Shown in pieces: positions 21,461 to 56,631 of a stretch of DNA of 64,000 nt. Position 1 is the first letter of the stretch; each line of letters begins with the position of its first letter. Under the pieces are notes generated by a model. That model did no database searches. It was given only the letters and a program-made list of their open reading frames with translations, and had not been told where the DNA came from. Position numbers and translations under genes: made by a program. Source of the DNA: Psilocybe cubensis (lineage: Eukaryota); contig CM039006.1 in the NCBI GenBank assembly GCA_017499595.2, forward strand, positions 310,001 through 374,000. The letters are read 5' to 3'.

Positions 21461-22100
21461 CTAAAGCTTTGCCAACCCCATAACTACTGTAACGCGTTCT
21501 TCCAGGTACTTGACTCCTTTTCCAAACACCCGATATTTGATATTCAACTCGTGCAACAATGCCTCAAAGATCTCCCCACATTCTTGCTGGTTTTCCAAGC
21601 TCCGGACACCATCATCGTGTATCCATTCTGATACTGGCTTCAGTAAGATGACGAGAGACGTGTCGGAGCGATATCTAGCCAAAACCTTGCGGAATTTGTC
21701 GCTGTTCAGGAGAAATTCCTTCCTTGCCCGTCTGTCGTCGGCGTCAGTAGAGGTGAGGATAGCATAAACAACAGGATCAAGCGCCGATCTGTCGAACAGA
21801 CGAACACAACATCCAAGCTCATCCAACATCTTTTCTTGCTCAAAATATGCCTCCATGATGTCCTGTTGCATTTGCAATGAACCGATGGTGTCGCGCGAGT
21901 AACCTTTGTCACGCATGACCTTGCGAGCAATTTCAGTAACATAGGCAGGCTTTTGAAGCCCTAGACGCTGGGCCAAGGCATTGCAAAGTGTCGTCTTTCC
22001 TGTAGACTGTTTGGGTGCGCGTTAGTTTTTTATGACGTGTCTTGATATCATTACACACCGAGGGGCCTACGACGTAGATGGACAGCGTTTTTTCGGGCAT
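21461..22100 (-). CDS. Small P-loop NTPase/nucleotide kinase, NadR/Ttd14-like AAA_28 family (about 195 aa, 1 intron)
   Basis: MPEKTLSIYVVGPS|STGKTTLCNAL (Walker A split by an intron at about 22008-22058), EIAR, Walker-B-region FDRSALDPVVY and lid motif DDGVRS, all typical of AAA_28 kinases. Confidence 0.82.
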
Positions 22101-22224
22101 TTCTTGAATCGTCGCGATGGGTATGGGCAAGAGCAAGAGTTTCGAGTCTCTTTTTGAAAAGTTTCTCACAGCATGCCGATTATTCTCAGACGGGCGCCTA
22201 ACTTCTTGATCACCATCGATCACC
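22101..22224. promoter_or_regulatory. Putative bidirectional promoter between the AAA_28 kinase and the RdRP-helicase gene
   Basis: Only 124 bp separates two divergent ATGs (22100 on -, 22225 on +). Confidence 0.55.
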
Positions 22225-25200
22225 ATGCCTGGCCCAATTCTCCTTCGACAAAACCCACAGCCAGACGACGAAACATGGGAGTTTACTTTCGATCCTAAAT
22301 CTCTGTCCGTCCTGCAAAGACAGGGAATCAGCTACGGAAAACTCGTCACGCTGCGTCCGAATGGAATCTTCCTCCAGATGGAGCAGTTTCCTTCGAACAG
22401 AGTTCTCAACTTGGACGAAGGAGGTCCTAGCAAATTTGTCCTCCTTTCCATCGACCGTTTGTTCAGATTCGAGGAGCAACCAATGAAAGTCGTTGTTCAA
22501 TATATCATTCGCCTATTTAAGAGGGGTTTGTGGTTGAATGGTGTTCAGTACAGGTTCTACGGGCACAGCAACAGTCAACTGGTACGCAAACACGGCTGGG
22601 TCCAATTCATTGTGCTTACATCACCGCAGAGAGGGCGATCTTGCTTTCTTCGAGAAGCAAACTCTGACAAAGAGTTGGACGACAGGATTTACCAAATGGG
22701 CGACTTTGCGCGAATTATGAACGTTGCAAAACGTTGGTTGATCTGTTTATCACCGTCTTCAATGCTCATCGTATGACGTTTAAACCAGGTGCCAAACGGA
22801 TAGGCCTCATGTTCTCGTCTGCAGACATTGACTACAGCCTTGACCCTCGACGTGTTGGCGACATTCCCGATATCACAGATGGAGATGAAGTCTTCTCTGA
22901 CGGTTGTGGGCTCATCTCAAAATGGCTCGCCGTTCAGCTCAGCAAGAGGAAGAAAATTATTTTTCGAGGAGTAAGGTACACGCCTACGGTATTTCAAATT
23001 AGGTGAGTATTCACCTTCACGTTTCGTTGATTACCCCACTTATTCCGAGACGTTTAGGTATCTGGGATACAAAGGTGTGCTGATGCTCCACCCTGACCTT
23101 GACAAAAATGGTCTGGAACACGTCGCGCAATTTCGAAAGAGCATGAAAAAGTTTACTACCACGGTCGACCACACATTTTCCGTTGTAGGACATTCCAAGC
23201 CATACTCCTTTGGTCGACTCAACAACGACATTATAGTCCTGTTATCCAGCCTTGGTGTACCTGATTCCGCTTTCCTCCAAAAGCAACAGGAATATTTTGA
23301 CTGGATCATGTCTGTTTCCGGATCCGAGGACAAGGAGCCGGATCCAGTCAGCGCAGTAGACTTTCTATGTTGTCTATCCGAATACTCGCTCGCTGAACGA
23401 CTCCTTCTCGAGGGCATTGACAGCGAGCCGGTGAAGCGTGAGATACGCAGGTTGCAGAACTCAGAGGTCGCGAGTTCCCGCCAAGAAGGCACCAACAAGT
23501 TCAAATCGAGGATAATGGTACATAAATCGCGTCGATTGTATGGAGTGTGTGACCCCTATCAAGTTTTGGAAGAAGGCCAAGTTCACATTCGTATCTCTGT
23601 TGGGAGGAGAGGAGCCACGACACCTATACACGGGGATGTAATCGTGGTGCGAAATCCTTGTCTGCATCCAGGTATGGACTGCGTCCTTACGATTATGTAT
23701 CCCCAATACTTACCATTCTATGGCAATCCAGGCGACATTCTCAAGTTGCGTGCCGTAGATCACCCCAAGCTTTCCCATCTTTTGGATTGTTTGGTGTTCG
23801 CTAGTGTGGCTCGACCAGGGCACAAGGCTGCCCCATCAATGAGTAGCGGTGGAGACCTAGATGGTGGGCCTCACATTCTAAATCATATATAACGCTTGTA
23901 CTTATTTCATATGAAATCCATAGGTGACGAATTCTTTGTTTGTTGGGACAAAGACATCATACCTACCACGATCGCAGAGGCAAGTATTCGATTAAACTCT
24001 GTAAGAATGCATCTTAATGGATCAAACCACACTCTCAGTCTTATGATTATCCCGGGAACCGCGAACTTACCAAAAAGGATATCACTCGAGCAGACCTCGG
24101 CACTCATTTTGCATCCTATACATCGTCAGTCATGATTCCATTAAACTTAAAACCGCGAGTCCCTGAATCAGCTTTCTAGGTCGGGAGTAGCAAAGGTGTC
24201 TTCCCTACATGCTAAGTGGGCTCGCAGTAGCCCCAAAGGAGCACTTTGTGTCGAATGTCAAGAACTCAATGCCCTACACTCTCAGTCCGTAGATGGAGCT
24301 AACATTAGAATTCCAGAAAAGCTCTCCACGCCGCCTCCGCCACCACCAGGGATGGTATATGTTCTCGATGTATTGGAGGAAGCCTCTGAGAAATTCGCCA
24401 CCAAATTCTCTGAAGCGACGTCCCGTAGAACGGAAATCACGACATTGACTTCCAGAGATGATGGGGAACAGCTCCTGAAACGATTGCTACAAAGCGAACA
24501 GAACTCTTTGTCCGAGTTTGAACTCTTCAATCTGGCATATAGATTATCACAGAAGCATAACATCAACATACGGCCTTATCTCTCGCAGCTCGACTTCTCA
24601 GCATTGACGACTGAGCAGAAGCATATCATCAGCTCCGTTCTATCGCTTTCTGACATCGAGTACCCAGAGCTATGGAATTCTCTAGCAAGATCAGATATTC
24701 TTACGCCACAAGATTTATATCAACGCAACTTGGGTCGACCGTTCGCAATAAGTCGTCTTTACTCGTCGCGCAACAGTGGTTTAGTGACCTTTTTTGGGTA
24801 CCTAAAAAGGGCTACTCAAGAGTATACCAGAAAACTTCTTATTATCCAGGTAGGCATATAGCAGTGGAAAATTACCTGCTTCAAGTACGGCTGCTGATTA
24901 CATATGTAGACGGACCCAAGGTTTTCCATAGGAATATTTATGCGTGGTAAAATTCCTTGGGATGAGGATCTTGAAGTAAAAGAATCGAATAAAGATGGGG
25001 ACGCAATGAATGTGGTCGTATGTTCGTTCATGCCTAAAACGGCGTCTAATATCGCCACTCTTCGCACTTGCCAGACGGGCTACAGACTTCACTGCAGTGA
25101 TTATCGTTTCCAACTTTATGAAAGGAGTATCGGGAACACGTTTGTCTATATCAACAAATCCCCAGCCGAATTGCAGGCCCAAGTATCCACGAGTATAGCA

Positions 25201-28184
25201 CTGGATAAAATTTCACGAACGGTTCAAAAAGTAAGTTTTTAATACCTTCTTGACACTCGTAATTTGAAGAGAGGTCTGACCTTTCTAGCAACTCGGGCGC
25301 GTCAATAAAGCTCCTGCATTAAACATCGAACTTCATGTGGTGTCCAACCGCGATCGCGTCGCCCATCAGCTTTTTGACTTGTGGTTTGAACAGTAAGCTT
25401 TGTCTCTTTGATGCGTGATACCCTAACAAGCCTTCCCTTCCAACAGTGTCCCTACCGAAGAGTATGAGCGGCGCTTCCAGCGCGATCCAGCTCCTTACCG
25501 ACAAAATGATCTCAAAGACGTTGACTGGAGCTCGGAGGAAGTATCGAACATGAAAGATGTATTTTTTCGCAACATACCTGGTATCCCACTAGCTTCAAAC
25601 AGGCTGAAACACAATAAGGAGAGCATGGAGGAACAACTTTCACGGCGCATGATGCCAGAAATTGACAAGATTATGGAGTTTGCGATAAATCACCATGCGG
25701 AAGACGAGATATTCCTTGTGTTCGGATCGGTCATTGCACGTCAGCCCATTCCCCTTGACTTCATCGAACAGTGGATGGGCAGATACCCGACCTTGGCATT
25801 TACACTCCTGCAAATCTACCCTCCGAACGACAACGGTGAACTCCTCCCAGAGCTTGAGGAAATATCGTACCTCATTGTACGGAATGTTATCAGGTCCGCA
25901 AATGAGACAAAAATAGCTGCTCTGGTTGCGCTAGAGAAACTTGCAAAATCTATAGGCTCCATGCCCCTTCGCCATTACATGGACTTACTTATGCTCGCTG
26001 CGTTATCCGTTCGTGGAAAAACCCTGGTTCAAGAAGTATTTTTCCTTCTGAACGACGGGCGAAAAGCACATTGCCCCCCATCACCTAGAGATGAATACGG
26101 ACAGAAACATGCCCTGGGTGTGGCTTTTGATAGAGCAGATGAAGCAGCGGAGGAGTGTCCATGCAACGAGGATGGTCGGCCGCAAAGAAAGATGCGCGTA
26201 CCCCCCTCACACGCCAAGTTAAAATTCGATCCAGATTATGCCAACAAGGGAGAGGTCACGGCTACAATCAGAATTGACGCCAAAACTGCTGTCCGCCTTC
26301 ACTCCCATGTTCGACTGCAAGCCGCCTCTCGAGCAGAGAATCGTTGGATTGATGCACCAATTATGGATGGTGTTGTCGTGCAAGCCATAAAAGGCGAATT
26401 AAAGATAAAGTTATTTCATCCTGCGCCTCCTGAAATGGAAGTTATGGATTGGAATTTATATGATGCAGGGACTACAGGTACGCCTACACTAACAAGTCAA
26501 TTGCGATCGCAACAGGTTAACCTGGGATAATTAGCCACTAGCAATGCGATGATGGATGCTATTCAGCGCCTCCTTCACGATGACGAATGTTGTCTGTTCT
26601 ACGGTCTCATTATTGGTTCTGGTTCTATTGTTAGTGATGCTGCCGAGTTCAGAGACTTCGATGAATCCCAGCTCAGTCCAACATCAGGGCTGAATGAAAG
26701 TCAGATAAGAGCCATCGAATCATGGAGAAATCCCCTGTCACTGATCTGGGGACCACCCGGTGAGTAGACAGATAACTGCTTGCTCCATTCTGTCAAGTTT
26801 GAACTCGATTGACTCAGGAACCGGAAAGACCACCGTCATGGTACAAATACTCTGTGACATTATCAAGAGCTACGAAGAAACACCAAAAATTCTAATGACG
26901 GCATCAACTCACAATGGTAATGAGGTTCAAAATATCGCAGACAATCGACACTGATCGCTCTATTGTAATAGCTGTGGACAATGTTTTAGAACGATTTATT
27001 GCCATAAATGATTCGGAACATCTACTGAATGAAGAGCAGATCCTCCGAGTTGCGACCGACCAATCTAAAGTGAATCCTTCGCTTCATCATTATACAGTTA
27101 ATGATCGTGTTGGAGGAGATATGAATGAAAATAGCAAACTGTTCAAACAAGCTCAAAATCGAGTCGAAAACGCAGTTCTTATTTTTTCAACCTGTGCAGG
27201 CACGTAATAATTTCTGGATTCATCTAACATGTTTGTTGACATTGATATTTAGGCGCCGGCCTTGGAATTCTCCGAAAGCCAGACTTTGATATTGCATTGA
27301 TTGACGAGGCATCACAGATAACCGAGCCGTGTGCTCTCATACCCCTTGTAAAAGGAACAAAACGTGCTGTTATTGTAGGAGATCAGTGCGTCACCAAGAT
27401 GTACGGCTGTAATTGGTACTGAACTCTTGCAAAACATAGCGTACAGCTCCGCCCAACTGTCAAGGGCATGGGGAAGCCGCTGCAATACGACATTTCGCTT
27501 TTGGAACGGTTGTATACAAACAAGGAAGACACGCCCGATGGGCTTTCAAAGACGATGTTAGACGTCCAATATCGTTCACCAAGAATTCTGAATATATTCC
27601 CATCCAACGAATTCTACGAAGGCCAGCTAAAAACCCACGAATCAAACGCCGAGGTCTCAACTTTCATGTCCTTGTCTCAATTCCCATGGCCAACTGAAAA
27701 CGGTACGATCATTCCGACCGTGTTTATTCAATGCTCAGAGCAAGAAGACGAGGATGGTGGTCGTTCTAAGAGCAACAAGGGCCAAATAGAAGTTATCAGT
27801 CGTGTCCATCCTCTCATCACCTCTCAGCGACCAGACACCCCCATTGAACCGAAATTGGCGGAGCTAAAAATTGCGGTACTCTCGCCATACACGAAGCAAA
27901 TAGATGCTCTGAAGAGAAAGCTCCCTTCATCCATTAGATGTTCAACTATTGACTCTTTCCAAGGACGCGAAAGCGACATTGTCATCTTCTCCACTGTCAG
28001 ATGCAATGTGAGCGGAGAAGTTGGTTTTTTGGATGATCCCCGAAGGTTGAACGTCATGTGGACTCGTGCTCGCCTGGCTTTGATTATAGTTGGAGACAGG
28101 GGCACGATGAGTACCAACCAGCAATGGAAGCGAGCTTTGGATGCCTGCACCGAAGTAGTTTTGCCTACTGTCTCAAATGCGTAG
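22225..28184 (+). CDS. RNA-dependent RNA polymerase (cellular RNAi type) fused to a Upf1/Sen1-like SF1 helicase; 16 exons, about 1,705 aa
   Basis: RdRP motifs YRFYGHSNSQLR, AKRIGLMFS, FSDGCGLIS, FQIRYLGYKGVL, RLYGVCD, VRNPCLHPGD, catalytic SGGDLDGDEFFVCWD. Helicase motifs LNESQ, WGPPGTGKTT, STHNAVDN, LIDEASQ, VGDHVQLRP, SLLERL, LDVQYRS, SPYTKQ, TIDSFQGRESD, RRLNVMWTRAR. Fifteen introns traced by hand (22582-22629, 22733-22788, 23003-23057, 23672-23731, 23864-23923, 23980-24038 GC-AG, 24125-24179, 24850-24909, 25231-25288, 25393-25446, 26478-26534, 26760-26817, 26917-26971, 27200-27252 GC-AG, 27386-27439) give one uninterrupted 5,118-nt frame. Confidence 0.88.
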
Positions 28185-28521: not shown

Positions 28522-29459
28522 AATACGACCGAGAGCTGACAGGGGTGAAGAAGTGGTTTAAATGAAGATCTTTCATCTCTTCAACCGAAATGTCATTGAA
28601 GTTTGGCATTTCGGTTCCGGGCTTTGGGCTAAAATCAAAATATAAGACTGATTTCCAACTAAATCGGGTAGGTAGTTATGCAACATTACCTGACTAGAAA
28701 CCTTGCAGCATGTTTTCCAGTTTAACTGGAAGAATGTTTTCTATTTTGTCTTCCAGTTAACATACAAGCATTTTTTACAGTTTGATTTCCACTCAAACTG
28801 GAGTACATTCTGACACCTTGATCTGGTACTTAATGTATAAGACAGCTTCAAGGTCCATCTTATATTCAAAATGTAAGAGAAATTTCTACGTTGAGTTTAC
28901 TTGGACTATCTGTGCAAGATACGGAGTCCGTAGAAGTTAGTCTTGTATTCGGAAAATCCCGGGGTGATACATCAATGCCATCAAAACGAAGCTTAGGACG
29001 GCATATCGGCTCACAGACATCGACACATGTCGGAGTCCAAAATATTCCTGATGATCATTGATCAACATACATATATACTAATATAGTAATAAGTATTAGT
29101 AAGCGGTCATGAAAACGGACTCAGAGTCAAAGTCTTCGCACGTTCCGGGACTGCAGCTTTGGCTTCATTAATAATTGCAATCTACATTCGGTGTCATATA
29201 GCGTCAAATCCACGTTGCGCAGCTAGATGAGTCAATATTTGTAGGCGTTGGAAGGTACAAAGAGGTACAGAGATCCGAGGTTACCTTTTTCTTGGGGATT
29301 GGATTTCACGGGAAAAAGATATCAGGTGCTTTTGATTCTTGGCAGGACACCACCATCGTTACAACTTTGCAGCAGCACAAATATTGGTTTCACGAATTTC
29401 TCAACTCTACCCAGCTCTACCCACATCTTTCTTCTGTAATTTTACCCCCTGTCGCCACG

Positions 29460-31034
29460 ATGGCGACTCCATTCTCGTGGTCGGATACCCTAAAAATCAC
29501 CATCGGTACATGTTTGCCATGTATCAAGCCCAAGGTTGGGGCGGGAGACTCTGGGGACGACGAACCTAATAACCAGAACAACAATGGCACCATAAGCCGG
29601 ATACCCCGTGCCCGCCCCGACGAGCTACAAGGCCTGCTCGCAGACCCCGAAACAGACCCTGAAGCGGAGACGATGTCGCTGCACTCGAACCCTGGACGAA
29701 GCAAGCGGAAGAAGAAACGCTCGTCCAAAAACAACCATTCACGTACATCGCTCAAGTTGTTTGGGTACAATTTGTTCGGTTCGCAGCCTATCCAGCTCCC
29801 TGACGACGGCGAAGATGCATTGTATCAGGATGACTGGCGGAGAAGGAGGAGAGAGCGGAACGAGAGTTTGTCTGCTCCCAGCATTGCCACCGCCCACTCT
29901 ACGGCGAGTACATTCGACTTGGATGCAGCACCGTTGGACGCAGAGACCATCAACGCCCTTTCTTCTCCATCAGCAGTAGAGGCCGCTGCTCAGGCAGCAG
30001 CGGAAGCTGAAGCCCAGCGCTTGCGGGAGAAGGAGGAACGCCGACGAAAGCGACGGGAGAAGAAAGAGTTGAGGAGGCTTGCTGAGGCTTTGACTGCACA
30101 GAATGTTGATGGAGATGATTTCGAAGGATTTCAAGGAAGCGGCAGCGGGGTGCCATCTCTGCCCAAGGCATCCCCTGGGCATCCACGCATCCCTAATGCA
30201 ATGTACCCAGGCGGACCAACCTCAGACTCCGGATCTGGGTCTGGTTTCTCAGGCTCAGTGACAGACGGATTTGGTAGATTTATATCGGCTCCAAATGGTG
30301 CCCCTCTGCACCTTCCACATAACGATGAGGACGAGGAGGCAGCGGACCTGGACGGAGGCGTGTACTCGCGCAACCAAGCGCGAGACGCGGTGGCTTTGGG
30401 TTCGGATTCACGGAGCAGGACGTCTGCATCCGCAAGTGATAGACCACATGCTCACCAGTATCCCGGTGACCAACCGCCTCGCAACAACGTGCTCGCCAAT
30501 CTTCGCTCCCGCTCCCGATCCCATTCTCACTCACATGCCTCGTCGTCCCGCGTGAGCTCGCCTCTGCAAGCCCACTTTGAACAAGCTCCAGAGACCGAGG
30601 CTACATCCTCGCCGTCTGGCTCCACCGTTGCCATTAAGAAGCGCAGAAAGAACAGGACATCTACAACTGCATCGTCCCGCACACCACAGTCAAGGTCGTC
30701 TGCCACGACATCTCAGTCACACTCGCCCTCCATTTCGTCACCCATCTCACCCAACTTTACAAAAGAAATTGTGAGCCCGAGTACGATTGAACAAGGTCAA
30801 GGCTTTTTTGATCTCGAAGACGAAGATGTGTCTCCTCAACCTCAACCACCACCAGAGGTGGATGTTGATAAACCTGGATCTGGTTTCCCTAGTACACGTA
30901 TAGGTGGGGGAGGAGGGTTCCCAATGACCGGTTTTGGCTCCGCAACCGCTGGCCAGAGACGCACAGCGAAGGATTTTGGCGCATTCTTGGCTAGACGAGG
31001 TGAAGATGACGCCGACGCCGACGTGGGACTATAA
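29460..31034 (+). CDS. Intronless hypothetical protein, low-complexity Ser/Arg-rich with a charged coiled-coil
   Basis: Long ORF; ATG at 29460 in good context (gccacgATGg). MATPFSWSDTLKITIGTCLPC start, basic clusters (KRKKKR, RRRKRREKKE), DFEGFQGSG. Confidence 0.75.
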   Translation: MATPFSWSDTLKITIGTCLPCIKPKVGAGDSGDDEPNNQNNNGTISRIPRARPDELQGLLADPETDPEAETMSLHSNPGRSKRKKKRSSKNNHSRTSLKLFGYNLFGSQPIQLPDDGEDALYQDDWRRRRRERNESLSAPSIATAHSTASTFDLDAAPLDAETINALSSPSAVEAAAQAAAEAEAQRLREKEERRRKRREKKELRRLAEALTAQNVDGDDFEGFQGSGSGVPSLPKASPGHPRIPNAMYPGGPTSDSGSGSGFSGSVTDGFGRFISAPNGAPLHLPHNDEDEEAADLDGGVYSRNQARDAVALGSDSRSRTSASASDRPHAHQYPGDQPPRNNVLANLRSRSRSHSHSHASSSRVSSPLQAHFEQAPETEATSSPSGSTVAIKKRRKNRTSTTASSRTPQSRSSATTSQSHSPSISSPISPNFTKEIVSPSTIEQGQGFFDLEDEDVSPQPQPPPEVDVDKPGSGFPSTRIGGGGGFPMTGFGSATAGQRRTAKDFGAFLARRGEDDADADVGL

Positions 31035-41332: not shown

Positions 41333-44300
41333 ATGAAGCTCAAGGAAATCCACAGAACATCGACATTTGCCTGGTCGCCGTCGGCGTCGCTTCCGTTGCT
41401 GGCCACTGGAACTGTAGCGGGCGCTCTTGATGAATCATTCAGCAACGAGAGCCAACTGGAAATATGGGCTCCGGATTTCCTGGACAGAGATGAGTTCGAT
41501 CTTGGGAGGGAAGGTGGTCATGGGCCAAAAGGTCGTGTCACAGACACAGCCAGGTTAGTACTACAGGTGTTGAACGCTAAACTTGCTCATTAATGGTGAT
41601 CGTGCAGATTCAATCGTCTAGCATGGGGACACGTTGACGCGGCTCGCCCTCAAGGTGTCATCGCTGCCGGCTTGGAGAACGGCGAGTTGGCTTTATGGGA
41701 TCCGGCAAAGATACTTTCAGGAGCAAGGTACGACATAGGTCGTATATTCCAACAGTGGTCTGACTGAAGATGTGCAGTGCTTCTGAATCTCTCATTCTGC
41801 GAAATACTACACATACAGGTCCTGTGCGCGGTCTCGATTTCAATCCACTGCAAACAAGCCTGCTCGCGTCAGGAGGCGTTAGTGGCGAGGTAATGAGCAC
41901 CCTATGATCTCATTAGGTCTACTGATATGTTGCTAGGTGTACATCTGGGATCTCAAAGACCCCAGCAAGCCGTACTCGCCTACTCCCGGGCAAAGGAGTA
42001 CGAAACTAGACGAGATCACCTCCGTGGCGTGGAATCAACAGGTCCAGTATGTGCTTGCTGGCGCAAGCAGCACAGGTTTCACTGTCGTGTGGGATCTACG
42101 AGGCAAACGTGAAGTGGTTGCGCTGACGTACGGCGGTGGTGCTGGCACCTTGGCTGGACAGTCTGGAACGGGAATGGGAATGGCTGTTGGAGGTAGACGG
42201 GGGATGAGCGACATTGCATGGCACCCCGATAACGTCAGTATAATCGCATCTTTATGCTTCTCATCCTCACTGTATACTGTAGGCTACAAGGCTTGTGACA
42301 GCGTCGGAGGATGATTCGTCTCCCATCCTCATGGTCTGGGACCTGCGTAATGCACGCGCTCCTGAGAAAGTAAGTGTACGTTTGTTGTTTCGGAAACAGG
42401 TTACTGATAGACATTTAGATTCTCACCGGGCACGAGAAAGGTGTCCTTTCTCTGTCATGGTGTAAACAAGATGCAGACTTGCTCTTGTCATGTGGTAAGG
42501 ATAACCGCGCTCTGTGCTGGAATCCTCAGACATATGAAGTTATCGGCGAGGTTTGTCTACGTTCGCCATAATCCCTCAATTTTTTCTAACCAATGCTTTC
42601 TAGCTTCCTTCTGCTGATAACTGGGCATTCCAAGTTGACTGGTGTCCTCGAAACCCCGATATGCTCGCGACTGCCTTCTTCGATGGCACCATCGGAATCC
42701 ACTCTATCCAATCCACAAATGAACCTTTGACCGACGCTCAAAAACCAACACCTAGGGCTGATGGTGCTGACATCTTTGACGCCCCCGGTTTCTCTCGGTC
42801 CGGTCAACAGGCCACACTATCACTCAAACAGCCACCCAAATGGCTTAGACGCCCAGTGTCAGCTTCGTTCGGGTTTGGCGGCAACCTCGTTACAGTGTCT
42901 AATTTGTCTTCGGCTCAGGGCAAGACTCAGAGCAGTGTCGTGCACATAAGAAAGGTTGTGACAGAGTCAGACCTTGTGGAAAGGGCGACCAAGTTGCAAG
43001 CGGCCATCGAAGGCGACAGTCTGCAGACATTTGCAGAAGAGAAAACCACGGCGACAGAGGAGACCACAACTGTCGGCAGCGAGGGATGGAAGGCTCTACT
43101 GAGCTTGTTTAAGGCTAACTCGAGGAACGAGCTGGTAACACTGCTCGGATTCTCCAAGGCTGAAATTGCCGCCCGCGTTGCAGAGGCTGTCGAAAATCTC
43201 AAGGCTGCTGCAGAGGCTGACGCCGCCAAATCTCCTTACGACGGCGACGCGACATCAACTCTCGCTGACAAGCCTCACGAATCTGTTGTCTCGTTTGCTG
43301 AGCCGGAAAGCGAGGAGGTGCCTTCGGATCGCAGCGAGGTGGGAGATGACTCAGAAGCTGCCACGCCATTCGGTGCGGACGAACAGACGCTCTCGGAGGC
43401 CAAAGATGAAGAGGAATCTGCCACAACGGCCCCGAGCCTCTTTGGTGATGACATCCCTGGAACACCCCAACACGACTTTTTCAACACCGTTGGCGTTGCA
43501 CAAGACAACGGCGAATCACATCCTGTTCTCGTCCCTCACACCAACTACGGTATTGATTCTTCAGTTGCTGCTACTACCGGATCTGGTCCTTCGTCGGTCA
43601 CCTCGGAAGTTCTTACCAAAGCCAGTGGTGCAAGTGGGTTCAGAATTTACCCCTCGGAGGAGTCCGACAACGACCGCCTCGTTACAAAGGCGCTTGTTCT
43701 AGGAGACTTTGAAAGCGCGGTTTCCCTCTGCCTATCTTCAGATCGCTATGCGGATGCCATCCTCCTTGCTGTGCGAGGCGGCCCTGAGCTTTTGCAGCGC
43801 ACTCAGAAAGCGTACTTTGAGCGCAGAACCACACAACAACCATATCTCCGTCTCTTGCAGTCCATCGTGTCGAACGACCTTAGCGACATCGTTCAGAACG
43901 CCGATTTACAGGAATGGAGAGAAATCTTCGTCGTCATCTGCACGTTCGCGGGTCAAGAGGAATTCCCCACTTTGGCTGAGCAGCTGGGTAGCAGGTTAGA
44001 GTATCAGTTCACAGTGTCGCAGGGATCAGATGATCCGGAGGTCGTGGAGGAGGCCTACGCGTTCAGGAAGAACGCCACGCTTACATATCTTGCGTCGGCT
44101 CGCCTGGAAAGGCTAATCAACATTTGGGCTGATGAATTGCTCCAAGAAGAAAAGGCGTTGGTTGCTGATGAGAGTAATGATACTGGCTCGTATTACTCGG
44201 CCCATGCCCACGCTTTGCAGACCTTCATCGAGAAAGTCACCGTATTCCGTGCCGCCACCAACTACAAAGATGAAGCATTGACGTCGTCCTCTGCTGAACC

Positions 44301-46193
44301 TGCTCAAGCTTACAAGCTCGCGTCGCTCTATGATCGTTACTTTGAATACGCCGAGCTGCTCAGCACACAGGGTCTGTTGAAAGAAGCGGTCAGCTTCTTG
44401 AAGCTGACACCTGCTGGGTACAAAGGTGCAACCCCTGGCGCAGATTTGGAGTCTGAGAGAAAGAGATTGGTAGCTGCTACCACTGCGGGTCCTGTGGCGA
44501 GTACCTCCACAGCTGTACCTGCTCCTGTTACGTCGACAGCAGCGCCGACTAGAGGACCATACGCGCCTTCGGTGGCTCAGACTCAAGCTCCATCTCAACC
44601 TTATGCTACACGATATGGCCCTACTGGAGGCGAACCCAAGCCGCCAGTTCCTCAGCAACAATCTGCCTATGCTCCCCCTACGCAGTCTGCATACGCTCCT
44701 CCTGCAGCTCAGCAGTCAGCTTATGCTCCGCCAGCCACACAGACTGGCTATGCACCTCCGGCAAACAACTACCAAAATCCTTACAACCGATCCACCTCAC
44801 TCACGCAACCCCCACACCTCCGCCAACCTCCTCCGCAGCCTGACTCGTTTGGACCACCGCCGCCTAGGGCCCAAAATGGTACGCCCTCCAATAGCAACAT
44901 TCCGCCAGCGCCTCCACCGAAACGCGATACCAGCATTGGTTGGAATGACCCTGTGAACGTCCCCTCCTCGCGTCCTCCAGCGGCACTCAACCTGAACAAG
45001 CCGGCTGCAATCACCTCGCCCTTCCCAAATGCTCCCGCAACGCCAGGATACTCTCCCCAGGGATCTCCTTATATTGGACATGGACAGGCATCCGCGACGC
45101 TCCCTCCCCCACCGCGTCCTGGAAGCGTGGGCCTGAACCGCGGTGGGTCTGTTCCTCCTCCGGCGGGCGGACCTCCTCCCCCAGGCGGCCCCGGCATTCG
45201 TGGGCCGCCTTCCGCAGGTGTGTACCCCGGCCCGCCTGGTCCCGGTGTTAGGCCGCCCTCGCGGTTGATGTCACCATCTCAAGGCCAGAATTTGCCGCCA
45301 CCACCGCAAAGGCAACCGACCCCTAGCCAGTACGCCCCCCCGCCGTCGAGGGGACCTGCTCCTGGACATACACCCCCACCACCGGGTCAGTACGGTCGTC
45401 CGCCTGCTCCAGGACAGGGGCTGCAGCAACAGCAGCATCAACAAGCTCCTCCCCCACCAGGGCCTTACGGACCAGGACCAGGCCATGTAGCTCAGCCTCC
45501 TCCTCCTGGGCCATATGGACCCCCGCCTCAGCAACACCCTGGGCCTTCACAGCAACAGCAACCCTCACCTCCTCAGCAAGCCGGTGGCCCACCCCCTCCT
45601 CCAGGAGGTCCTGGTGCACCACCTCGCACAGTCTCTAGAAGTGCTGCTCCTGCTCGCGCGGCACCTGCTGCTCCAAAATACCGTATGTTTTCTTTCAGAA
45701 GTTAGTAACTAAGATGAGACTGATGGTACTTCCAGCTGTTGGTGATAGAAGCCATATCCCTGAATACGCGCAGCCTGCTTTCGTCAGCATCTCTAACCAT
45801 CTTACGAGGATGAAGCAGACTGTTCCTGTAATTAACATATGTTATTTGAGCGATTTGACGGATATTAATATTTTTCTTCCTCTCACAGGCTAACCAAAAG
45901 CGACTTATTGACGACCTTGAAAGGAGGATCAACCCATTGTTCGACGCACTCAACTGCGAGACTATCTCAAGGCCTGTGGTCGACCAACTGATCGTCTTGA
46001 CAAGAGGTAGGGATGCTCGTATCTAACGTTTGCTCATCCCTCTAACACTTTCTTTTACTTTTTCGTAGCAATGGATGCCCGTGATCGTGCTGCAGCTCTG
46101 TCAATTCATGTCGAGCTGTTGACTCGTGGATCGCAAACGGATGACATCGGATTATGGATGTCAGGCATCAAGCAATTGATTATGAGTCTGTGA
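41333..46193 (+). CDS. SEC31: COPII outer coat protein Sec31
   Basis: [18 protein letters not shown]40 repeats ([46 protein letters not shown]); [17 protein letters not shown]; alpha-solenoid; Pro/Gln-rich region; C-terminal [28 protein letters not shown]. Confidence 0.95.
44650..44770 (+). repeat. Coding tandem repeat (QQSAYAPP-like, 4 units) in the Sec31 proline-rich region
   Basis: [36 protein letters not shown]. Confidence 0.7.
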
Positions 46194-53930: not shown

Positions 53931-54195
53931 AAAATTGGTTATATATGTATGTAGGTACGTACAAGACATTATTGACTATGTAATACAATGTGATAGCGAA
54001 AACACATGGGCATGGAGCAAGGGCCTCTTTGTTTATAAAGCATATTATAATTGATACAGGGACATAGATAGAGGGGACATACATTGCGAGAGTGAACACA
54101 AATAATGATAGTACGAAGCTTCAGAAAACCAGAAGTCGTAGAGCCGCCAGATAAATAAGCCAGACAATATAGAGCGACGAACACATTCAGAGATG

Positions 54196-56631
54196 CTACG
54201 CCTTAGGTTGTTTGAGAGCAGAACGAAGAGGTGGTTTCGGAATCAGACGGTGCCCCAGGTCGATTCGGGTGCCTTCCTCGTTCATCCAGCCTTCGCCATG
54301 TTCAGGGTAATCATCAAGATCAGGTGGATACTCTTGCCCAGGCGCAGCGGCTTTGTACGCCCCATCATTCGTCCAAAGTTGGTCCCTGTTGAAAAGTGGA
54401 GAAAAAAAGGTTGGAGTGTCAGTATAACATAATTCAAAAATATAGAAACAGGAATTTTACCCCCTGCGGTTGAACCACCCTTTGCGGCGTTGGTTGGCGA
54501 ATAAAGGAGAAGGGCAAATCAAGTTCTCGTTCCAGCGAACAGATCGCAGAGCAGGCGCAGAGTTTCTACCAGAGAGCTGCGGCCTCAATGGAATATTCTG
54601 GTCGCCATCCGAATAACGCCTTTGCTGCTGCGGCTCGGAGCTAGCTTGACCAGGCATGACTGTCGTTCGAACGTTGCCTGCCGCGTCGATGTACTTCACA
54701 GTCGCCTGAGGAGGTATGGGACCACGAGGCACTAGGCCGTTGGTCGCAAATCTAGATGGATCGGGTGCCTGTAAATAGTTGGGATCTGCTGCGTATGGAG
54801 GCTGCGAGCGAGAGCTAGGAGGCTCTTGAGTGAGGACGCGGGCATGAGAGCTGCCGACATTTTGAGAGGTAACACGATCCATGGCTCTTGAAGGTGGAAG
54901 AGAAGATGGCTGGGGTTGGGCCGGCCGGCTGTCGTAGGCCGAAGTGGGTGGCAAAGGGCCGGGTTGAGGGTAATAAGGATTTTTAGATCCGTATTCAGGC
55001 CCACGCCTCGAGTCGGAGGGCGAGATCTGTAATGGCAGATTTTGGCGCATAGGTGCCGAAAACGAATTGGAACGTGTCCTCACTCGATCGTGTGGCAATA
55101 CTGCGCTATTCTGGGCAGCCGCTTGTCGTTGAGCGGCCTCAAGCTCAATTGGACTGGCGCGCATTTGGGTGGGAGACGTGCTCAATGGGCCTACTTTGTA
55201 TACTCCATCACGAGAATCGTACGGCCTGCCGTCTTTAGGAGAGCGAGGAGAGTCATCTGGATATGCCTGAGAACTGCGACGAGACGGGGGAATAGGTCGA
55301 TGGTCGGACGAATCCCGAGGTACAGACGCGCTGTTGGGCGCCAAAAAATTGTCTCGCCGGGCATGTTCTCTTGAACCTGACCCGCTCGAATCTGAGCTCG
55401 GTCTGGAAGAAGGACCAGTAGGTGGCCTATAGTCAACAGTGGTGTAAGAGGAGCCGTACTCGCGGTACTCCGAGGTCGGGCGCTGGCCAACAATGTCTGG
55501 GCGAGGTCCGACGACTGAAGGCCTGCGAGCTCGGTCTTGGGTGTAGTCCTGCGGACGAGAGGGTCCTGGATCAGAGGAACTTGGAGAGGTCCTGCGAGAG
55601 GGTTCGGGTCGATAACCAGCATCGCGACTCCGACTAGGAGAAATAGCTGCAGGATATGACTGTGACAAGGGACCGAGGAGTTCAGGAGGAAGCTCAGAAG
55701 GGATTCGCTCGACACTAGGGGGGCTGTCAAGCCTTACCGAGCTATGCAAGAGGGTGGGTGGATCCGACTTGCTGGGAAAGTGGAGACTTGGGTGTAGTGG
55801 TTGCGAGGAAACGACTCTATTAACATTGGATGGGACTGAACGTCCGTCGCTGGAGGATGCAGTACTTGAAGTATAGAAAGAACCTGTGGAGGCCGAGTTG
55901 ATTCCTGCATTGATTTTGGCGATTCTATCGCGTTCCTCCACCTCCATCTCCGAAAATGTGCTCGGTTCGTACTCCGGGATCTCTATAAAACCTCTTCCAG
56001 TGGATGGAACTCGTGACATGCCTGTAGTTGGAGGGGCAGGAGCACGAAAAGGTGTGGTGGAGCGACCAGCCAGACTTGCTAATCTACGGTGTTCTTCAAC
56101 TGATTCCGCCGTCAACGCAGCCTCATGGGCACGATTGCTGGAAGACGCTGTCCTGCTCATTGCAGTGCTCTGAGGAGCGGAAAGAGTCTGGGGGTATCCC
56201 CCACGAACAGCAGGAGTTTGGGGGCGAACAATTCGTTGATCTTCCATCGGATTGCCCTGAAGAGTGACTGTACTGTCTGTAGAAAGCGCAGGCGAGAATG
56301 CAGATGATGGGGAAAAGGTAGTGGTTGAAGCATTATCCAGCTCGGAGGTCGAGAAAATATCTGACTTGGAGCACATCGATTGCTCATAGATAAACGTGTC
56401 ATTCGTTGCACTGGGATAAATAGCGTAATTTGGCGTAGTTCGTGGTCGTTGGTCGTAGGCATTATACGAGCTATGTGGAGGAGCATAGGTAGGTTTCATG
56501 TTTTTGACTGTTGTGTAGCGCTTCCAGATGAATGAGACGTACCTAGAGGGATACCAGCTCGCGTTTTGTTGCTGTGGTTGAGTCGGAGGTGGCGGCGGCA
56601 GCGTTTGCGGCGCACGATAATTATTATCCAT
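54196..56631 (-). CDS. Hypothetical Ser/Pro/Arg-rich protein with a compact C-terminal domain
   Basis: Long ORF 54457-56790 splices to a last exon: ...VRWNENLICPSP..RRKGWFNRRG|DQLWTNDGAYKAAAPGQEYPPDLDDYPEHGEGWMNEEGTRIDLGHRLIPKPPLRSALKQPKA* (stop 54196). Start taken as MDNNYRAPQ. Confidence 0.72.

What the first reader, a model, noticed from the sequence alone, without database searches (positions are those of the whole stretch)
22225..28184. Single-gene fusion of an RNAi-type RNA-dependent RNA polymerase and a Upf1-like SF1 helicase
Seen: 15 introns can be placed so that an intact RdRP (DLDGD, itself split by intron 23864-23923) runs without a stop through about 700 aa of middle region into a helicase with all SF1 motifs (GPPGTGKT, DEASQ, GDHVQL, QYRS, DSFQGRE, RRLNV..TRAR). 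Established: RdRPs act with separately encoded SF1 helicases in S. pombe (Rdp1 with Hrr1 in the RDRC) and in Neurospora meiotic silencing (SAD-1 with SAD-3), and ZNFX1-type helicases partner RdRPs in animals. Inference: this gene may hard-wire an RDRC-like machine into one polypeptide and form an accessory silencing or antiviral system distinct from canonical QDE-1/SAD-1 genes. I recognise no N-terminal RRM, and the gene lies in an accessory-looking stretch beside a truncated pseudogene.
Basis: partly seen in the sequence, partly recalled or inferred. Interest (0 to 1): 0.88.

Follow-up and report, generated by a model that had tools for sequence, protein, structure and literature searches.

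The report
Fungal RdRP–helicase fusion gene, mis-annotated
This is one real, expressed mushroom gene that joins an RNA-copying polymerase of the RNA-silencing type to an Upf1-like RNA helicase, but the same fusion is conserved across most higher fungi and has already been described and knocked out in Fusarium graminearum, so it is a new member of a known kind.

Summary
Window 22225-28184 (+) is one gene of 16 exons and 15 introns. It encodes 1705 aa with no internal stop, an intact RdRP (DLDGD) and a complete Upf1-like SF1 helicase. Spliced contigs of run X1 support 13 of the 15 introns, including the one inside the helicase P-loop. No contig bridges 26438-26619.

The window matches Psilocybe cubensis. 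Its public protein model (P0001, 1313 aa) stops five bases into the P-loop intron and therefore lacks the helicase.

The fusion is neither lineage-specific nor accessory. Of 74 relatives of the middle region, 54 carry RdRP plus helicase families. The architecture recurs across Agaricomycetes and Pezizomycotina. The RdRP and helicase halves give the same Basidiomycota/Ascomycota split.

The protein aligns end to end with FGSG_09076, F. graminearum FgRdRp5. That protein's RdRP+helicase architecture was published in 2015. Its knockout in 2024 impaired ascospore discharge and altered exonic siRNAs.

The helicase is closest to Upf1/Nam7, not to ZNFX1. The RdRP is closer to plant RDR2 than to QDE-1.

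Verdict: real, correctly read, already-known architecture, biochemically unstudied.

The parts
22225..28184 (+). Whole CDS of the RdRP-helicase gene: 16 exons, 15 introns, 5118 nt, 1705 aa
   Evidence: Spliced alignment with 4 guides, 0 stops. Assembled model. 74.9% identity to Galerina P0002 and 34.4% end to end to FGSG_09076.
22225..24124 (+). Exons 1-7 encoding the RdRP core (about aa 1-520; the Pfam RdRP match starts near aa 52)
   Evidence: PF05183 on ORF pieces: 4.2e-05, 1.3e-11 and 1.9e-47. Orthologue P0002 gives RdRP 2e-102 over aa 53-554. Best PDB hits are plant RDR2-type enzymes.
23854..23928 (+). Catalytic DLDGD codons (aa 471-475), interrupted by intron 23864-23923
   Evidence: Motif located. 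The intron is skipped in an X1 contig. SGGDLDGD is in the family consensus.
24180..25392 (+). Exons 8-10 (aa 521-885): end of the RdRP region plus a family-specific beta-rich middle domain
   Evidence: No Pfam family on these pieces. The AF2 model of orthologue P0094 shows a beta-rich domain at its residues 45-200. Identity is 72-74% to Galerina and 24-25% to FgRdRp5. The fold was not searched on its own.
25447..26477 (+). Exon 11 (aa 886-1230): alpha-helical repeat domain followed by the stalk and 1B beta-barrel of the helicase
   Evidence: AF2 model: pLDDT 94.6, pTM 0.92. The barrel aligns to Upf1 domain 1B, chain residues 324-414 (Z 8.6, rmsd 2.6, 82 aligned). Stalk plus barrel aligns to SETX (Z 8.8), Sen1 (8.1), Dna2 (7.6), Ighmbp2 (7.3) and ZNFX1 (7.3). 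The helical part gives only generic repeat matches.
26535..28184 (+). Exons 12-16 (aa 1230-1705): RecA1 and RecA2 of the Upf1-like SF1 helicase, and the stop codon
   Evidence: AAA_12 2.4e-46; AAA_11 weak on a piece. All motifs present. PDB: Upf1 4.6e-24 for the RecA2 piece. Orthologue P0035: Nam7/Upf1 3e-49. Foldseek top hit is Upf1.
26750..26831 (+). Walker A / motif I GPPGTGKT, split by intron 26760-26817. The public model P0001 reads into this intron and stops.
   Evidence: P0001 ends ...WGPPGE. X1 record 6 splices across the intron.
22582..22629 (+). Intron 1 (48 nt, GT..AG)
   Evidence: 4 of 4 guides. X1 joint.
22733..22788 (+). Intron 2 (56 nt, GT..AG), supported by homology only
   Evidence: 4 of 4 guides. 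The junction gives VAKR|AKRIGL, as in the family consensus. The X1 contig here shows 37 nt of small gaps; unresolved.
23003..23057 (+). Intron 3 (55 nt)
   Evidence: joint.
23672..23731 (+). Intron 4 (60 nt)
   Evidence: joint, cut +6.
23864..23923 (+). Intron 5 (60 nt), inside DLDGD
   Evidence: joint.
23980..24038 (+). Intron 6 (59 nt, GC..AG donor)
   Evidence: X1 skips 59 nt. P0001 carries 7 extra residues at this point, which I take to be a different donor choice.
24125..24179 (+). Intron 7 (55 nt)
24850..24909 (+). Intron 8 (60 nt)
25231..25288 (+). Intron 9 (58 nt)
   Evidence: The X1 loose end after 25230 equals the sequence at 25289.
25393..25446 (+). Intron 10 (54 nt)
   Evidence: 3 of 4 guides. 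The X1 joint 25392>25447 settles it.
26478..26534 (+). Intron 11 (57 nt), supported by homology only
   Evidence: 4 of 4 guides. X1 has no cover here.
26760..26817 (+). Intron 12 (58 nt), inside the P-loop
   Evidence: X1 record 6 skips it.
26917..26971 (+). Intron 13 (55 nt)
   Evidence: 3 of 4 guides. X1 joint.
27200..27252 (+). Intron 14 (53 nt, GC..AG donor)
   Evidence: X1 skips 53 nt.
27386..27439 (+). Intron 15 (54 nt)
   Evidence: X1 joint; an X5 contig starts at 27440.

Best explanation
Window 22225-28184 is the Psilocybe cubensis orthologue of a Dikarya-wide family of single-chain RdRP-helicase enzymes. The studied member of that family is Fusarium graminearum FgRdRp5 (FGSG_09076).

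Shown here:
- It is one spliced ORF of 1705 aa.
- The N-terminal cellular RdRP (PF05183, DLDGD intact) is closer to plant RDR2-type enzymes than to QDE-1.
- A conserved middle region holds a beta-rich domain and an alpha-helical repeat domain.
- A complete Upf1-like SF1 helicase follows: stalk, 1B barrel, RecA1 and RecA2, with motifs I-VI intact.
- The gene is transcribed and spliced.
- The public annotation truncates it inside the P-loop.

Inferred, about 0.6: as in F. graminearum, it contributes to Dicer-dependent endogenous (exonic) siRNA production, probably during sporulation or sexual development.

Inferred, about 0.4: the helicase grips or translocates on single-stranded RNA 5'->3', as Upf1-like enzymes do. 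On this view it either strips proteins and structure from the selected template and hands it to the polymerase, or it peels the product off the template. This is the job done in trans by SDE3 with RDR6 in plants and by Hrr1 with Rdp1 in fission yeast (both recalled).
For: Gene model:
- Each of 4 guides gives 15 introns and 0 stops.
- The model is 1705 aa with all motifs.

Transcription:
- X1 contigs splice 13 of 15 introns. One 1320-nt contig runs from about 26620 to 28157 across the P-loop intron. Another covers 25289-26437.
- The uncovered stretch (aa 1217-1258) is 78% identical to Galerina and 33% to FgRdRp5, with 0.99 alignment occupancy.

Family:
- 54 of 74 middle-region relatives carry RdRP plus AAA_11/AAA_12.
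- In the helicase search, 9 named ascomycete rows carry the fusion.
- In the Podospora-seeded search, by my reading 119 of 120 listed rows are fused, including FGSG_09076.
- The model aligns to FGSG_09076 in one HSP: aa 14-1697 against 21-1703, 904 bits.
- Pfam places AAA_12 of FGSG_09076 at 1476-1677, matching the paper's 1475-1677.
- Trees of the RdRP half and the helicase half each separate Basidiomycota (37 rows) from Ascomycota (28 rows) on one branch, with support 98-100.

Helicase type:
- Nam7/Upf1 scores 3e-49, ahead of SETX, Sen1, Smubp2, Dna2 and ZNFX1.
- Foldseek's top hit is Upf1.
- The 1B barrel aligns to Upf1 at Z 8.6.

Function by homology:
- The FgRdRp5 knockout cut ascospore discharge to 47.6% of wild type and changed ex-siRNA accumulation (abstract and passages).
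- The RdRP+helicase architecture was noted in 2015 (passage).
Against: - No single RNA contig links the RdRP and helicase halves. X1 has no cover at 26438-26619, so continuity there rests on the open frame and on conservation.
- Introns 2 and 11 lack RNA support.
- X1 is labelled RNA only as a guess by the tool. I infer RNA from its spliced contigs.
- 16 of 74 relatives are annotated as RdRP only and 4 as helicase only. I read these as truncated models, but their DNA could not be fetched to check.
- The function is transferred from an ascomycete at 34% identity. No sRNA, knockout or biochemical data exist for any basidiomycete member in the papers I could search.
- A 5'->3' helicase moves opposite to a polymerase reading the same template 3'->5', so the coupling mechanism is open.
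Confidence: 0.85

Rival explanations
1. Two adjacent genes: an RdRP-only gene as in the public annotation (1313 aa), followed by a separately transcribed helicase gene.
For: - The public model P0001 ends at 26764.
- 16 of 74 relatives are annotated RdRP only and 4 helicase only.
- X1 contigs leave 26438-26619 uncovered.
Against: - P0001 ends ...WGPPGE, inside the Walker A motif and five bases into an intron that X1 splices out. A helicase gene starting after that point would lack half its P-loop, its stalk and its 1B barrel.
- 13 of the 16 RdRP-only models end at model aa 1305-1312, inside the same motif. That is the signature of a shared prediction error.
- The frame is open and conserved through the uncovered stretch.
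- The two halves co-diverge.
Confidence: 0.04
2. Both forms are made. Regulated retention of the P-loop intron (26760-26817) would give a helicase-less RdRP of 1306 aa alongside the 1705-aa fusion.
For: - A stop follows five bases into that intron.
- The intron position appears to be shared, because 13 of 16 truncated models end there.
Against: - The only RNA contig at this site is spliced.
- Contigs drop minor isoforms, so this is untested rather than excluded.
- Truncated gene models are the simpler explanation.
Confidence: 0.08
3. A lineage-specific accessory antiviral module that hard-wires an RDRC (Rdp1-Hrr1 type) complex.
For: - It joins an RdRP and an SF1 helicase on one chain.
- FgRdRp5 mRNA was predicted to be a target of hypovirus-derived siRNAs, and those authors suggested an antiviral role (passage).
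Against: - It is not lineage-specific. It is conserved across two phyla with congruent halves.
- The helicase is nearest Upf1/Nam7 (3e-49). The ZNFX1 core, the solved proxy for the Hrr1/SAD-3 group (grouping recalled), scores 2e-23.
- There is no Cid12-like nucleotidyltransferase domain. Pfam on P0002 and P0205 lists only RdRP and helicase/P-loop families.
Confidence: 0.08
4. A decaying or non-functional gene copy.
For: None beyond the truncated public model.
Against: - The ORF is intact at 1705 aa and all catalytic motifs are kept.
- It is 75% identical to Galerina over the full length.
- It is spliced and transcribed.
Confidence: 0.01

Closest known systems
Fusarium graminearum FgRdRp5 (FGSG_09076; P0205 here)
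   Same: - Same domain order: RdRP, long middle region, then SF1 helicase (AAA_11/AAA_12).
- Same length class: 1721 aa against 1705 aa.
- One colinear alignment over aa 14-1697.
- Same family in both half-trees.
- The architecture was published in 2015. Deletion, expression and sRNA data followed in 2024.
   Different: - Only 34% identical, and in a different phylum.
- The middle region is only 23-25% identical.
- The papers call the helicase a 'DEAD-like' domain. Here it is shown to be an Upf1-like SF1 helicase with a 1B barrel.
- There are no functional data for any basidiomycete member.
Upf1/Nam7 and other Upf1-like SF1B helicases (Sen1/SETX, Smubp2/Ighmbp2, Dna2, ZNFX1, Aquarius)
   Same: - Motifs I-VI are present.
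- The RecA1/RecA2 core, stalk and 1B barrel are present.
- Best sequence and fold matches are to this group.
   Different: - No Upf1 CH/zinc-knuckle domain appears among the Pfam hits on P0002 or P0205.
- It is fused behind an RdRP.
- It is not an orthologue of Upf1 itself.
Plant RDR2/RDR6-type (RDR-alpha) polymerases working with the SF1 helicase SDE3
   Same: - The RdRP half scores best against plant RDR structures.
- The Fusarium papers also place FgRdRp5 nearest to plant RdRPs.
- An RdRP teamed with an Upf1-like helicase is the same division of labour (the SDE3 partnership is recalled).
   Different: - In plants these are separate proteins.
- The plant enzymes carry an N-terminal RRM, and none is found here.
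S. pombe RDRC (Rdp1-Hrr1-Cid12) and Neurospora SAD-1/SAD-3
   Same: An RdRP that needs an SF1 helicase for siRNA production (reviewed passages).
   Different: - These are separate subunits.
- Their helicases belong with ZNFX1 (recalled), which ranks well below Upf1 here.
- There is no nucleotidyltransferase here.
Dictyostelium and Naegleria helicase-RdRP fusions
   Same: A helicase and a cellular RdRP on one chain (earlier findings e1-634287 and e1-673546; Dictyostelium recalled).
   Different: - There the helicase is an N-terminal Dicer-type DExH (SF2) domain.
- Here it is a C-terminal Upf1-like SF1 domain, so this is an independent fusion.
Nidovirus nsp13 helicase with the viral RdRp
   Same: An Upf1-like SF1 helicase working beside an RNA-copying polymerase. 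Foldseek matches nsp13 at about 1e-14.
   Different: - The viral RdRp has an unrelated fold.
- The two are separate polyprotein products.

Membership tests
Eukaryotic cellular RdRP (Pfam PF05183) | Profile match above the gathering score | tested here: met
   162.7 bits against a cut-off of 23.8 on ORF piece 22975-23892. Orthologue P0002 scores 344 bits.
Eukaryotic cellular RdRP (Pfam PF05183) | Catalytic DxDGD loop | tested here: met
   DLDGD at aa 471-475. It is conserved in the 53-sequence family alignment consensus.
Eukaryotic cellular RdRP (Pfam PF05183) | RNA-dependent RNA synthesis | not testable with these tools
   Needs an enzyme assay.
Upf1-like SF1B helicases | SF1 motifs I, II, III, IV, V and VI | tested here: met
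   GPPGTGKT, DEASQ, GDHVQL, QYR, DSFQGRE and RRLNVMWTRAR. The assignment of motif numbers is recalled.
Upf1-like SF1B helicases | AAA_11 plus AAA_12 Pfam pair above cut-off | tested here: met
   AAA_12 scores 158.2 bits (cut-off 27) on the window piece. AAA_11 scores only 20.5 bits on an intron-split piece, but 116.9 bits in the 75%-identical orthologue P0002.
Upf1-like SF1B helicases | Stalk and 1B beta-barrel ahead of RecA1 | tested here: met
   The window exon 11 model aligns to Upf1 residues 324-414 (Z 8.6, rmsd 2.6, 82 aligned) and to SETX (Z 8.8).
Upf1 proper (NMD factor) | N-terminal CH zinc-knuckle domain | tested here: not met
   Pfam on P0002 and P0205 lists only RdRP and helicase/P-loop families. 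The slot ahead of the helicase is taken by the RdRP and the middle domains.
FgRdRp5-type RdRP-helicase family | Colinear full-length homology to FGSG_09076 with the same domain order | tested here: met
   One HSP, aa 14-1697 against 21-1703, 34.4% identity, 904 bits.
FgRdRp5-type RdRP-helicase family | Both halves share one history | tested here: met
   FastTree on 617 RdRP columns and 495 helicase columns, 68 rows. Basidiomycota and Ascomycota each fall on one side of a branch in both trees (support 98-100). The trees are unrooted and used the quick method.
FgRdRp5-type RdRP-helicase family | Role in ex-siRNA accumulation and spore development | not testable with these tools
   Known only for F. 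graminearum.
RDRC-type machine (Rdp1 with Hrr1; SAD-1 with SAD-3) | Helicase of the Hrr1/SAD-3/ZNFX1 group | tested here: inconclusive
   The ZNFX1 helicase core scores 2e-23 against 3e-49 for Nam7/Upf1 with orthologue P0035. Hrr1 and SAD-3 themselves were not available to compare, and their grouping with ZNFX1 is recalled.
RDRC-type machine (Rdp1 with Hrr1; SAD-1 with SAD-3) | Associated Cid12-type nucleotidyltransferase | tested here: not met
   No such domain appears in the Pfam scans of P0002 or P0205. A separately encoded partner could not be sought because no genome is held.

The most novel reading that the evidence does not exclude
The family would be an ancestral, self-contained 'one-chain RDRC' of Dikarya. 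An Upf1-type helicase, working like an NMD sensor, would pick out aberrant or ribosome-stalled mRNAs and feed them directly to an RDR-alpha polymerase. Retention of the conserved P-loop intron would switch the enzyme between helicase-coupled and helicase-free modes. Nothing here excludes this. Neither the biochemistry of the coupling nor the isoform usage has been looked at in any member.
Probability: 0.12. Interest if true: 0.65.

Novelty: new member of a known kind. Interest (0 to 1): 0.3.

Why it matters
Practical value:
- The public Psilocybe cubensis model of this gene is wrong in two places. It has 7 extra residues at a GC-AG intron, and it is truncated inside the Walker A motif.
- The same truncation seems to affect 13 of the 16 'RdRP-only' models in related mushrooms. 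Domain censuses of fungal RNAi genes would therefore undercount this fusion.

Biological value:
- The fusion is old, present in both phyla of Dikarya, and keeps both catalytic sites.
- Only one member has been knocked out. Nobody has tested what the helicase does for the polymerase.
- It is a ready-made system for asking how SF1 helicases assist cellular RdRPs, because the two partners cannot be separated by stoichiometry or localisation.

It is not a new kind of system.

Tried and rejected
- Whole genome: none is held. I could make no census of paralogous RdRPs, of Hrr1/SAD-3-like helicases or of Cid12-like genes, and no synteny check.
- RNA runs: no listed holder is on record as RNA. X1 and X5 are guesses by the tool. 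I treat X1 as RNA only because its contigs skip introns. X5 gave two short contigs (27440-27657 and 27684-27842) and adds little.
- No X1 cover at 26438 to about 26619, so there is no bridge between the halves.
- Intron 2: the X1 contig shows 12+1+11+11+2 nt of gaps at 22725-22838. DNA run X3 shares 13 of them. I could not tell a strain indel from an alignment artefact.
- Searches failed because I set the frame wrongly. I corrected it.
- Foldseek 'pdb' on the exon 11 model gave no match at E <= 0.001. In pdb_via_wide the helical repeat part matched only generic alpha-solenoids at Z 6-7.7, below what the tool calls meaningful for helical proteins.
- The search of 1.84 billion representatives with exon 11 gave 102 hits at E <= 0.001. 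Most were exon-sized fragments of 300-450 aa, so it says little about architecture.
- Earlier findings of this scan: none for this sequence or genome.
- Papers on RNAi genes in basidiomycetes: the Sanghuangporus passages list four RdRPs of 807-1198 aa with only an RdRP domain. The passages found in the Lax et al. review do not mention the fusion. Searches found no description of the fusion in Basidiomycota. Subscription journals and supplements were not searchable. Fig. S1 of the 2015 paper, which shows the domains, was not seen.
- Naming the RdRP clade (alpha/beta/gamma) by my own tree was dropped, because no named SAD-1, RRP-3 or Rdp1 sequences could be fetched.

Full report
**What is in the sequence**

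A stop-to-stop ORF list of 21-29.5 kb shows a chain of + strand reading frames from 22210 to 28184.
- Pfam on the unspliced pieces finds the cellular RdRP family PF05183 in three consecutive pieces. The best is 162.7 bits against a cut-off of 23.8.
- It finds a weak AAA_11 match, and AAA_12 at 158.2 bits in the last piece.
- It finds no RRM.

The 367-aa middle ORF (25427-26530) was searched against longer proteins.
- It is 100% identical to a 1313-aa protein named 'putative RNA-dependent RNA polymerase 1 [Psilocybe cubensis]' (P0001, RdRP family only).
- It is 71% identical to a 1721-aa Galerina marginata protein carrying RdRP, AAA_11 and AAA_12 (P0002).

**Gene model**

I wrote a protein-to-genome spliced aligner and ran it with four full-length guides: P0002, P0003, P0008 and P0009.
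- Each guide gave 15 introns and no stop.
- 13 introns were identical in all four guides. The other two were agreed by three of four.
- Joined from the ATG at 22225 to the stop at 28184, the CDS is 5118 nt and the protein 1705 aa.
DLDGD is split by intron 23864-23923, and GPPGTGKT is split by intron 26760-26817.
- Two introns have GC donors.

**Transcript evidence**

One search for sequencing runs returned five runs, none on record as RNA. I laid four of them on the window.
- X2 and X3 (about 45 Mb of contigs each) run straight through the introns and behave as genomic DNA.
- Contigs of X1 skip 12 of the 15 predicted introns at the predicted places, including both GC-AG introns. X1 therefore holds spliced transcripts.
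- A 13th intron (25231-25288) is shown by a 10-letter loose end that equals the sequence at 25289.
- One X1 contig of 1320 nt runs from about 26620 to 28157 across four introns, including the one inside the P-loop. Another covers 25289-26437.

Limits of this evidence:
- Nothing in X1 covers 26438 to about 26619, which includes intron 26478-26534. No single contig joins the two halves.
- The alignment around intron 22733-22788 is broken into small gaps that I could not interpret.
- The uncovered stretch encodes aa 1217-1258. These are 78% identical to Galerina and 33% to the Fusarium protein, and they are filled in 99% of the aligned family.

**The public annotation is truncated**

P0001 equals my model from aa 1 to 1305, with two exceptions.
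- It has a 7-residue insertion at the GC-AG intron 23980-24038. X1 supports the 59-nt intron there.
- It ends ...WGPPGE, which means it reads five bases into intron 26760-26817 and meets a stop.

No P. cubensis protein of 434 aa or more covering the helicase exons turned up. Shorter models were not searched.

Of the 16 relatives annotated as RdRP only, 13 end at my model's aa 1305-1312, inside the same Walker A motif. This looks like a shared prediction error at a conserved intron. I could not fetch their DNA to prove it.

**Distribution**

- Of the 74 relatives of the middle region, I count 54 with RdRP plus AAA_11/AAA_12, 16 with RdRP only and 4 with helicase only.
- The helicase piece found 542 longer proteins at E <= 1e-10. 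The 120 listed are dominated by fused proteins of 1500-1800 aa from many orders of Agaricomycetes (order names recalled). They also include 9 named ascomycete rows.
- A search seeded with one of those (Podospora, P0145) found 1075 proteins at E <= 1e-20. By my reading, 119 of the 120 listed are fused. They span Sordario-, Leotio-, Dothideo-, Eurotio-, Lecanoro- and Pezizomycetes (class names recalled) and include FGSG_09076 of F. graminearum PH-1.
- My model aligns to FGSG_09076 in a single HSP over aa 14-1697 (34.4% identity, 904 bits).

I aligned 68 rows: the model plus 67 proteins hand-picked from the 262 held, chosen for full length and taxonomic spread. I then built quick trees of the RdRP half (617 columns) and the helicase half (495 columns).
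- In both trees Basidiomycota (37 rows) and Ascomycota (28 rows) each occupy one side of a branch, with support 98-100.
- The internal groupings are similar.
- These are FastTree trees without an outgroup. They fit one old fusion inherited vertically, but they do not root it.
- Three rows sit apart and are unexplained: a record labelled as the insect Bradysia odoriphaga, and two unnamed ENA proteins.

**Which polymerase, which helicase**

- The RdRP exon scores best against plant RDR2 (3.5e-09), with no QDE-1 hit at 1e-3.
- The Laccaria orthologue P0006 scores 7e-33 to 3e-30 against plant RDR structures and 1.5e-11 against QDE-1.
- The helicase RecA2 piece scores best against Upf1 (4.6e-24).
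- The orthologue P0035, which covers my aa 966-1700, gives this order: Nam7/Upf1 3e-49, SETX 6e-40, Sen1 3e-38, Smubp2 2e-35, Dna2 5e-33, ZNFX1 2e-23, Aquarius 7e-18.

**Domain anatomy**

An AlphaFold2 model of orthologue P0094 (my aa 639-1699; pLDDT 85.4) shows, in order, a beta-rich domain, an all-helical domain, a beta-barrel, stalk helices and two RecA domains. Foldseek ranks Upf1 first, followed by Dna2, Ighmbp2, SETX, Sen1, ZNFX1, Aquarius and coronavirus nsp13.

A model of the window's own exon 11 (pLDDT 94.6) gives more detail.
- Its barrel lies on Upf1 domain 1B (Z 8.6, rmsd 2.6, 82 residues).
- Its last helices plus the barrel lie on the SETX and Sen1 stalk-barrel unit (Z 8.8 and 8.1).
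- The helical repeat part has only generic matches.

The truly family-specific part is roughly aa 600-1060.

**What is already known**

- Chen et al. [quoted passage not shown] They made deletion mutants of all five RdRPs.
- A 2016 paper (PMC4870495, abstract and passages) predicts FgRdRp5 mRNA as a target of hypovirus-derived siRNAs.
- The 2024 mBio paper (PMC11237814, abstract and passages) gives the domain limits as 1277-1478 and 1475-1677. My Pfam scan of P0205 puts AAA_12 at 1476-1677. The paper places the protein on a branch of its own. It reports about 10-fold induction in sporulation and in sexual development, and ascospore discharge reduced to 47.6% in the deletion mutant. It also reports a shared role with FgRdRp1 and FgRdRp2 in exonic siRNA accumulation. 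The role of the helicase part is left open.
- A 2019 paper on animal RdRPs notes an amphioxus RdRP candidate with an AAA_12 domain.
- I found no paper describing the fusion in Basidiomycota. Supplements and subscription journals were out of reach.

**How it probably works**

Shown: both catalytic centres are intact and conserved, the two modules have stayed on one chain since before the two phyla split, and the gene is expressed.

Inferred from the Fusarium knockout: a role in Dicer-dependent endogenous siRNA production tied to spore development.

Inferred from the enzyme families: the Upf1-like module binds single-stranded RNA and moves 5'->3' at the cost of ATP. The polymerase reads its template 3'->5'. 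On one strand the two would move in opposite directions. The likelier jobs for the helicase are therefore:
- to clamp and clear the chosen template (mRNP remodelling) before or behind the polymerase, or
- to run along the nascent strand and release it.

I cannot tell these apart.

**Context**

- GC content is 0.45-0.47 here, as in most of the window.
- The gene upstream, on the minus strand, is an intact two-exon, 195-aa AAA_28 P-loop gene.
- Its 52-nt intron (22007-22058) is spliced in X1.
- Its ATG at 22100 lies 124 bp from the RdRP gene's ATG.

**Verdict**

The reading of the sequence was accurate, and the fusion is real with high probability. What remains open is the biochemistry of the polymerase-helicase coupling and any role in mushrooms.

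Noticed in passing
window 21461-22100 (-): An intact two-exon gene for a 195-aa AAA_28 P-loop NTPase (Pfam 3.5e-18) sits head to head with the RdRP gene, with 124 bp between the two ATGs. Its 52-nt GT..AG intron (22007-22058) is spliced in an X1 contig. It is not a pseudogene.
   Followed up: yes
window 23980-24038 and 26760-26770: The public P. cubensis protein P0001 differs from the RNA-supported model in two places. It has 7 extra residues at a GC-AG intron, and a premature end (...WGPPGE) five bases into the P-loop intron.
   Followed up: yes
relatives P0005, P0026, P0027, P0032, P0037, P0039, P0041, P0047, P0061, P0067, P0069, P0070 (and P0001): 13 of 16 'RdRP-only' gene models in other Agaricomycetes end at the position of model aa 1305-1312, inside the Walker A motif. 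This points to a conserved intron there and to a systematic truncation by gene predictors. Their DNA could not be fetched.
   Followed up: partly
window 22725-22840: Strain differences cluster around exon 2, intron 2 and exon 3. DNA run X3 and RNA run X1 both lack 12 nt at 22725 and 1 nt at 22745, next to a repeated AKR-AKR coding motif. X1 shows three further small gaps. It is not resolved whether these are alleles or alignment artefacts.
   Followed up: partly
proteins P0129, P0149, P0150: Three full-length RdRP-helicase proteins fall outside both fungal phyla in the trees. One is from a record labelled as the insect Bradysia odoriphaga (1732 aa), and two are unnamed ENA proteins. They could be contamination, another fungal lineage or gene transfer.
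   Followed up: no
window 29202-31034 (+): A long open frame (610 aa as listed) that is rich in Ser, Arg and Glu low-complexity runs and has no Pfam family at E <= 0.001.
   Followed up: partly
window 44001-46000 and 54001-56000: Two stretches stand out in composition. GC is 0.573 with GC skew -0.18 in the first, and GC is 0.533 with skew +0.17 in the second, against about 0.45 elsewhere.
   Followed up: no
paper PMC6396948: An amphioxus (Branchiostoma lanceolatum) RdRP candidate is reported with an AAA_12 domain. An RdRP plus SF1-helicase pairing on one chain may therefore also exist in animals.
   Followed up: no
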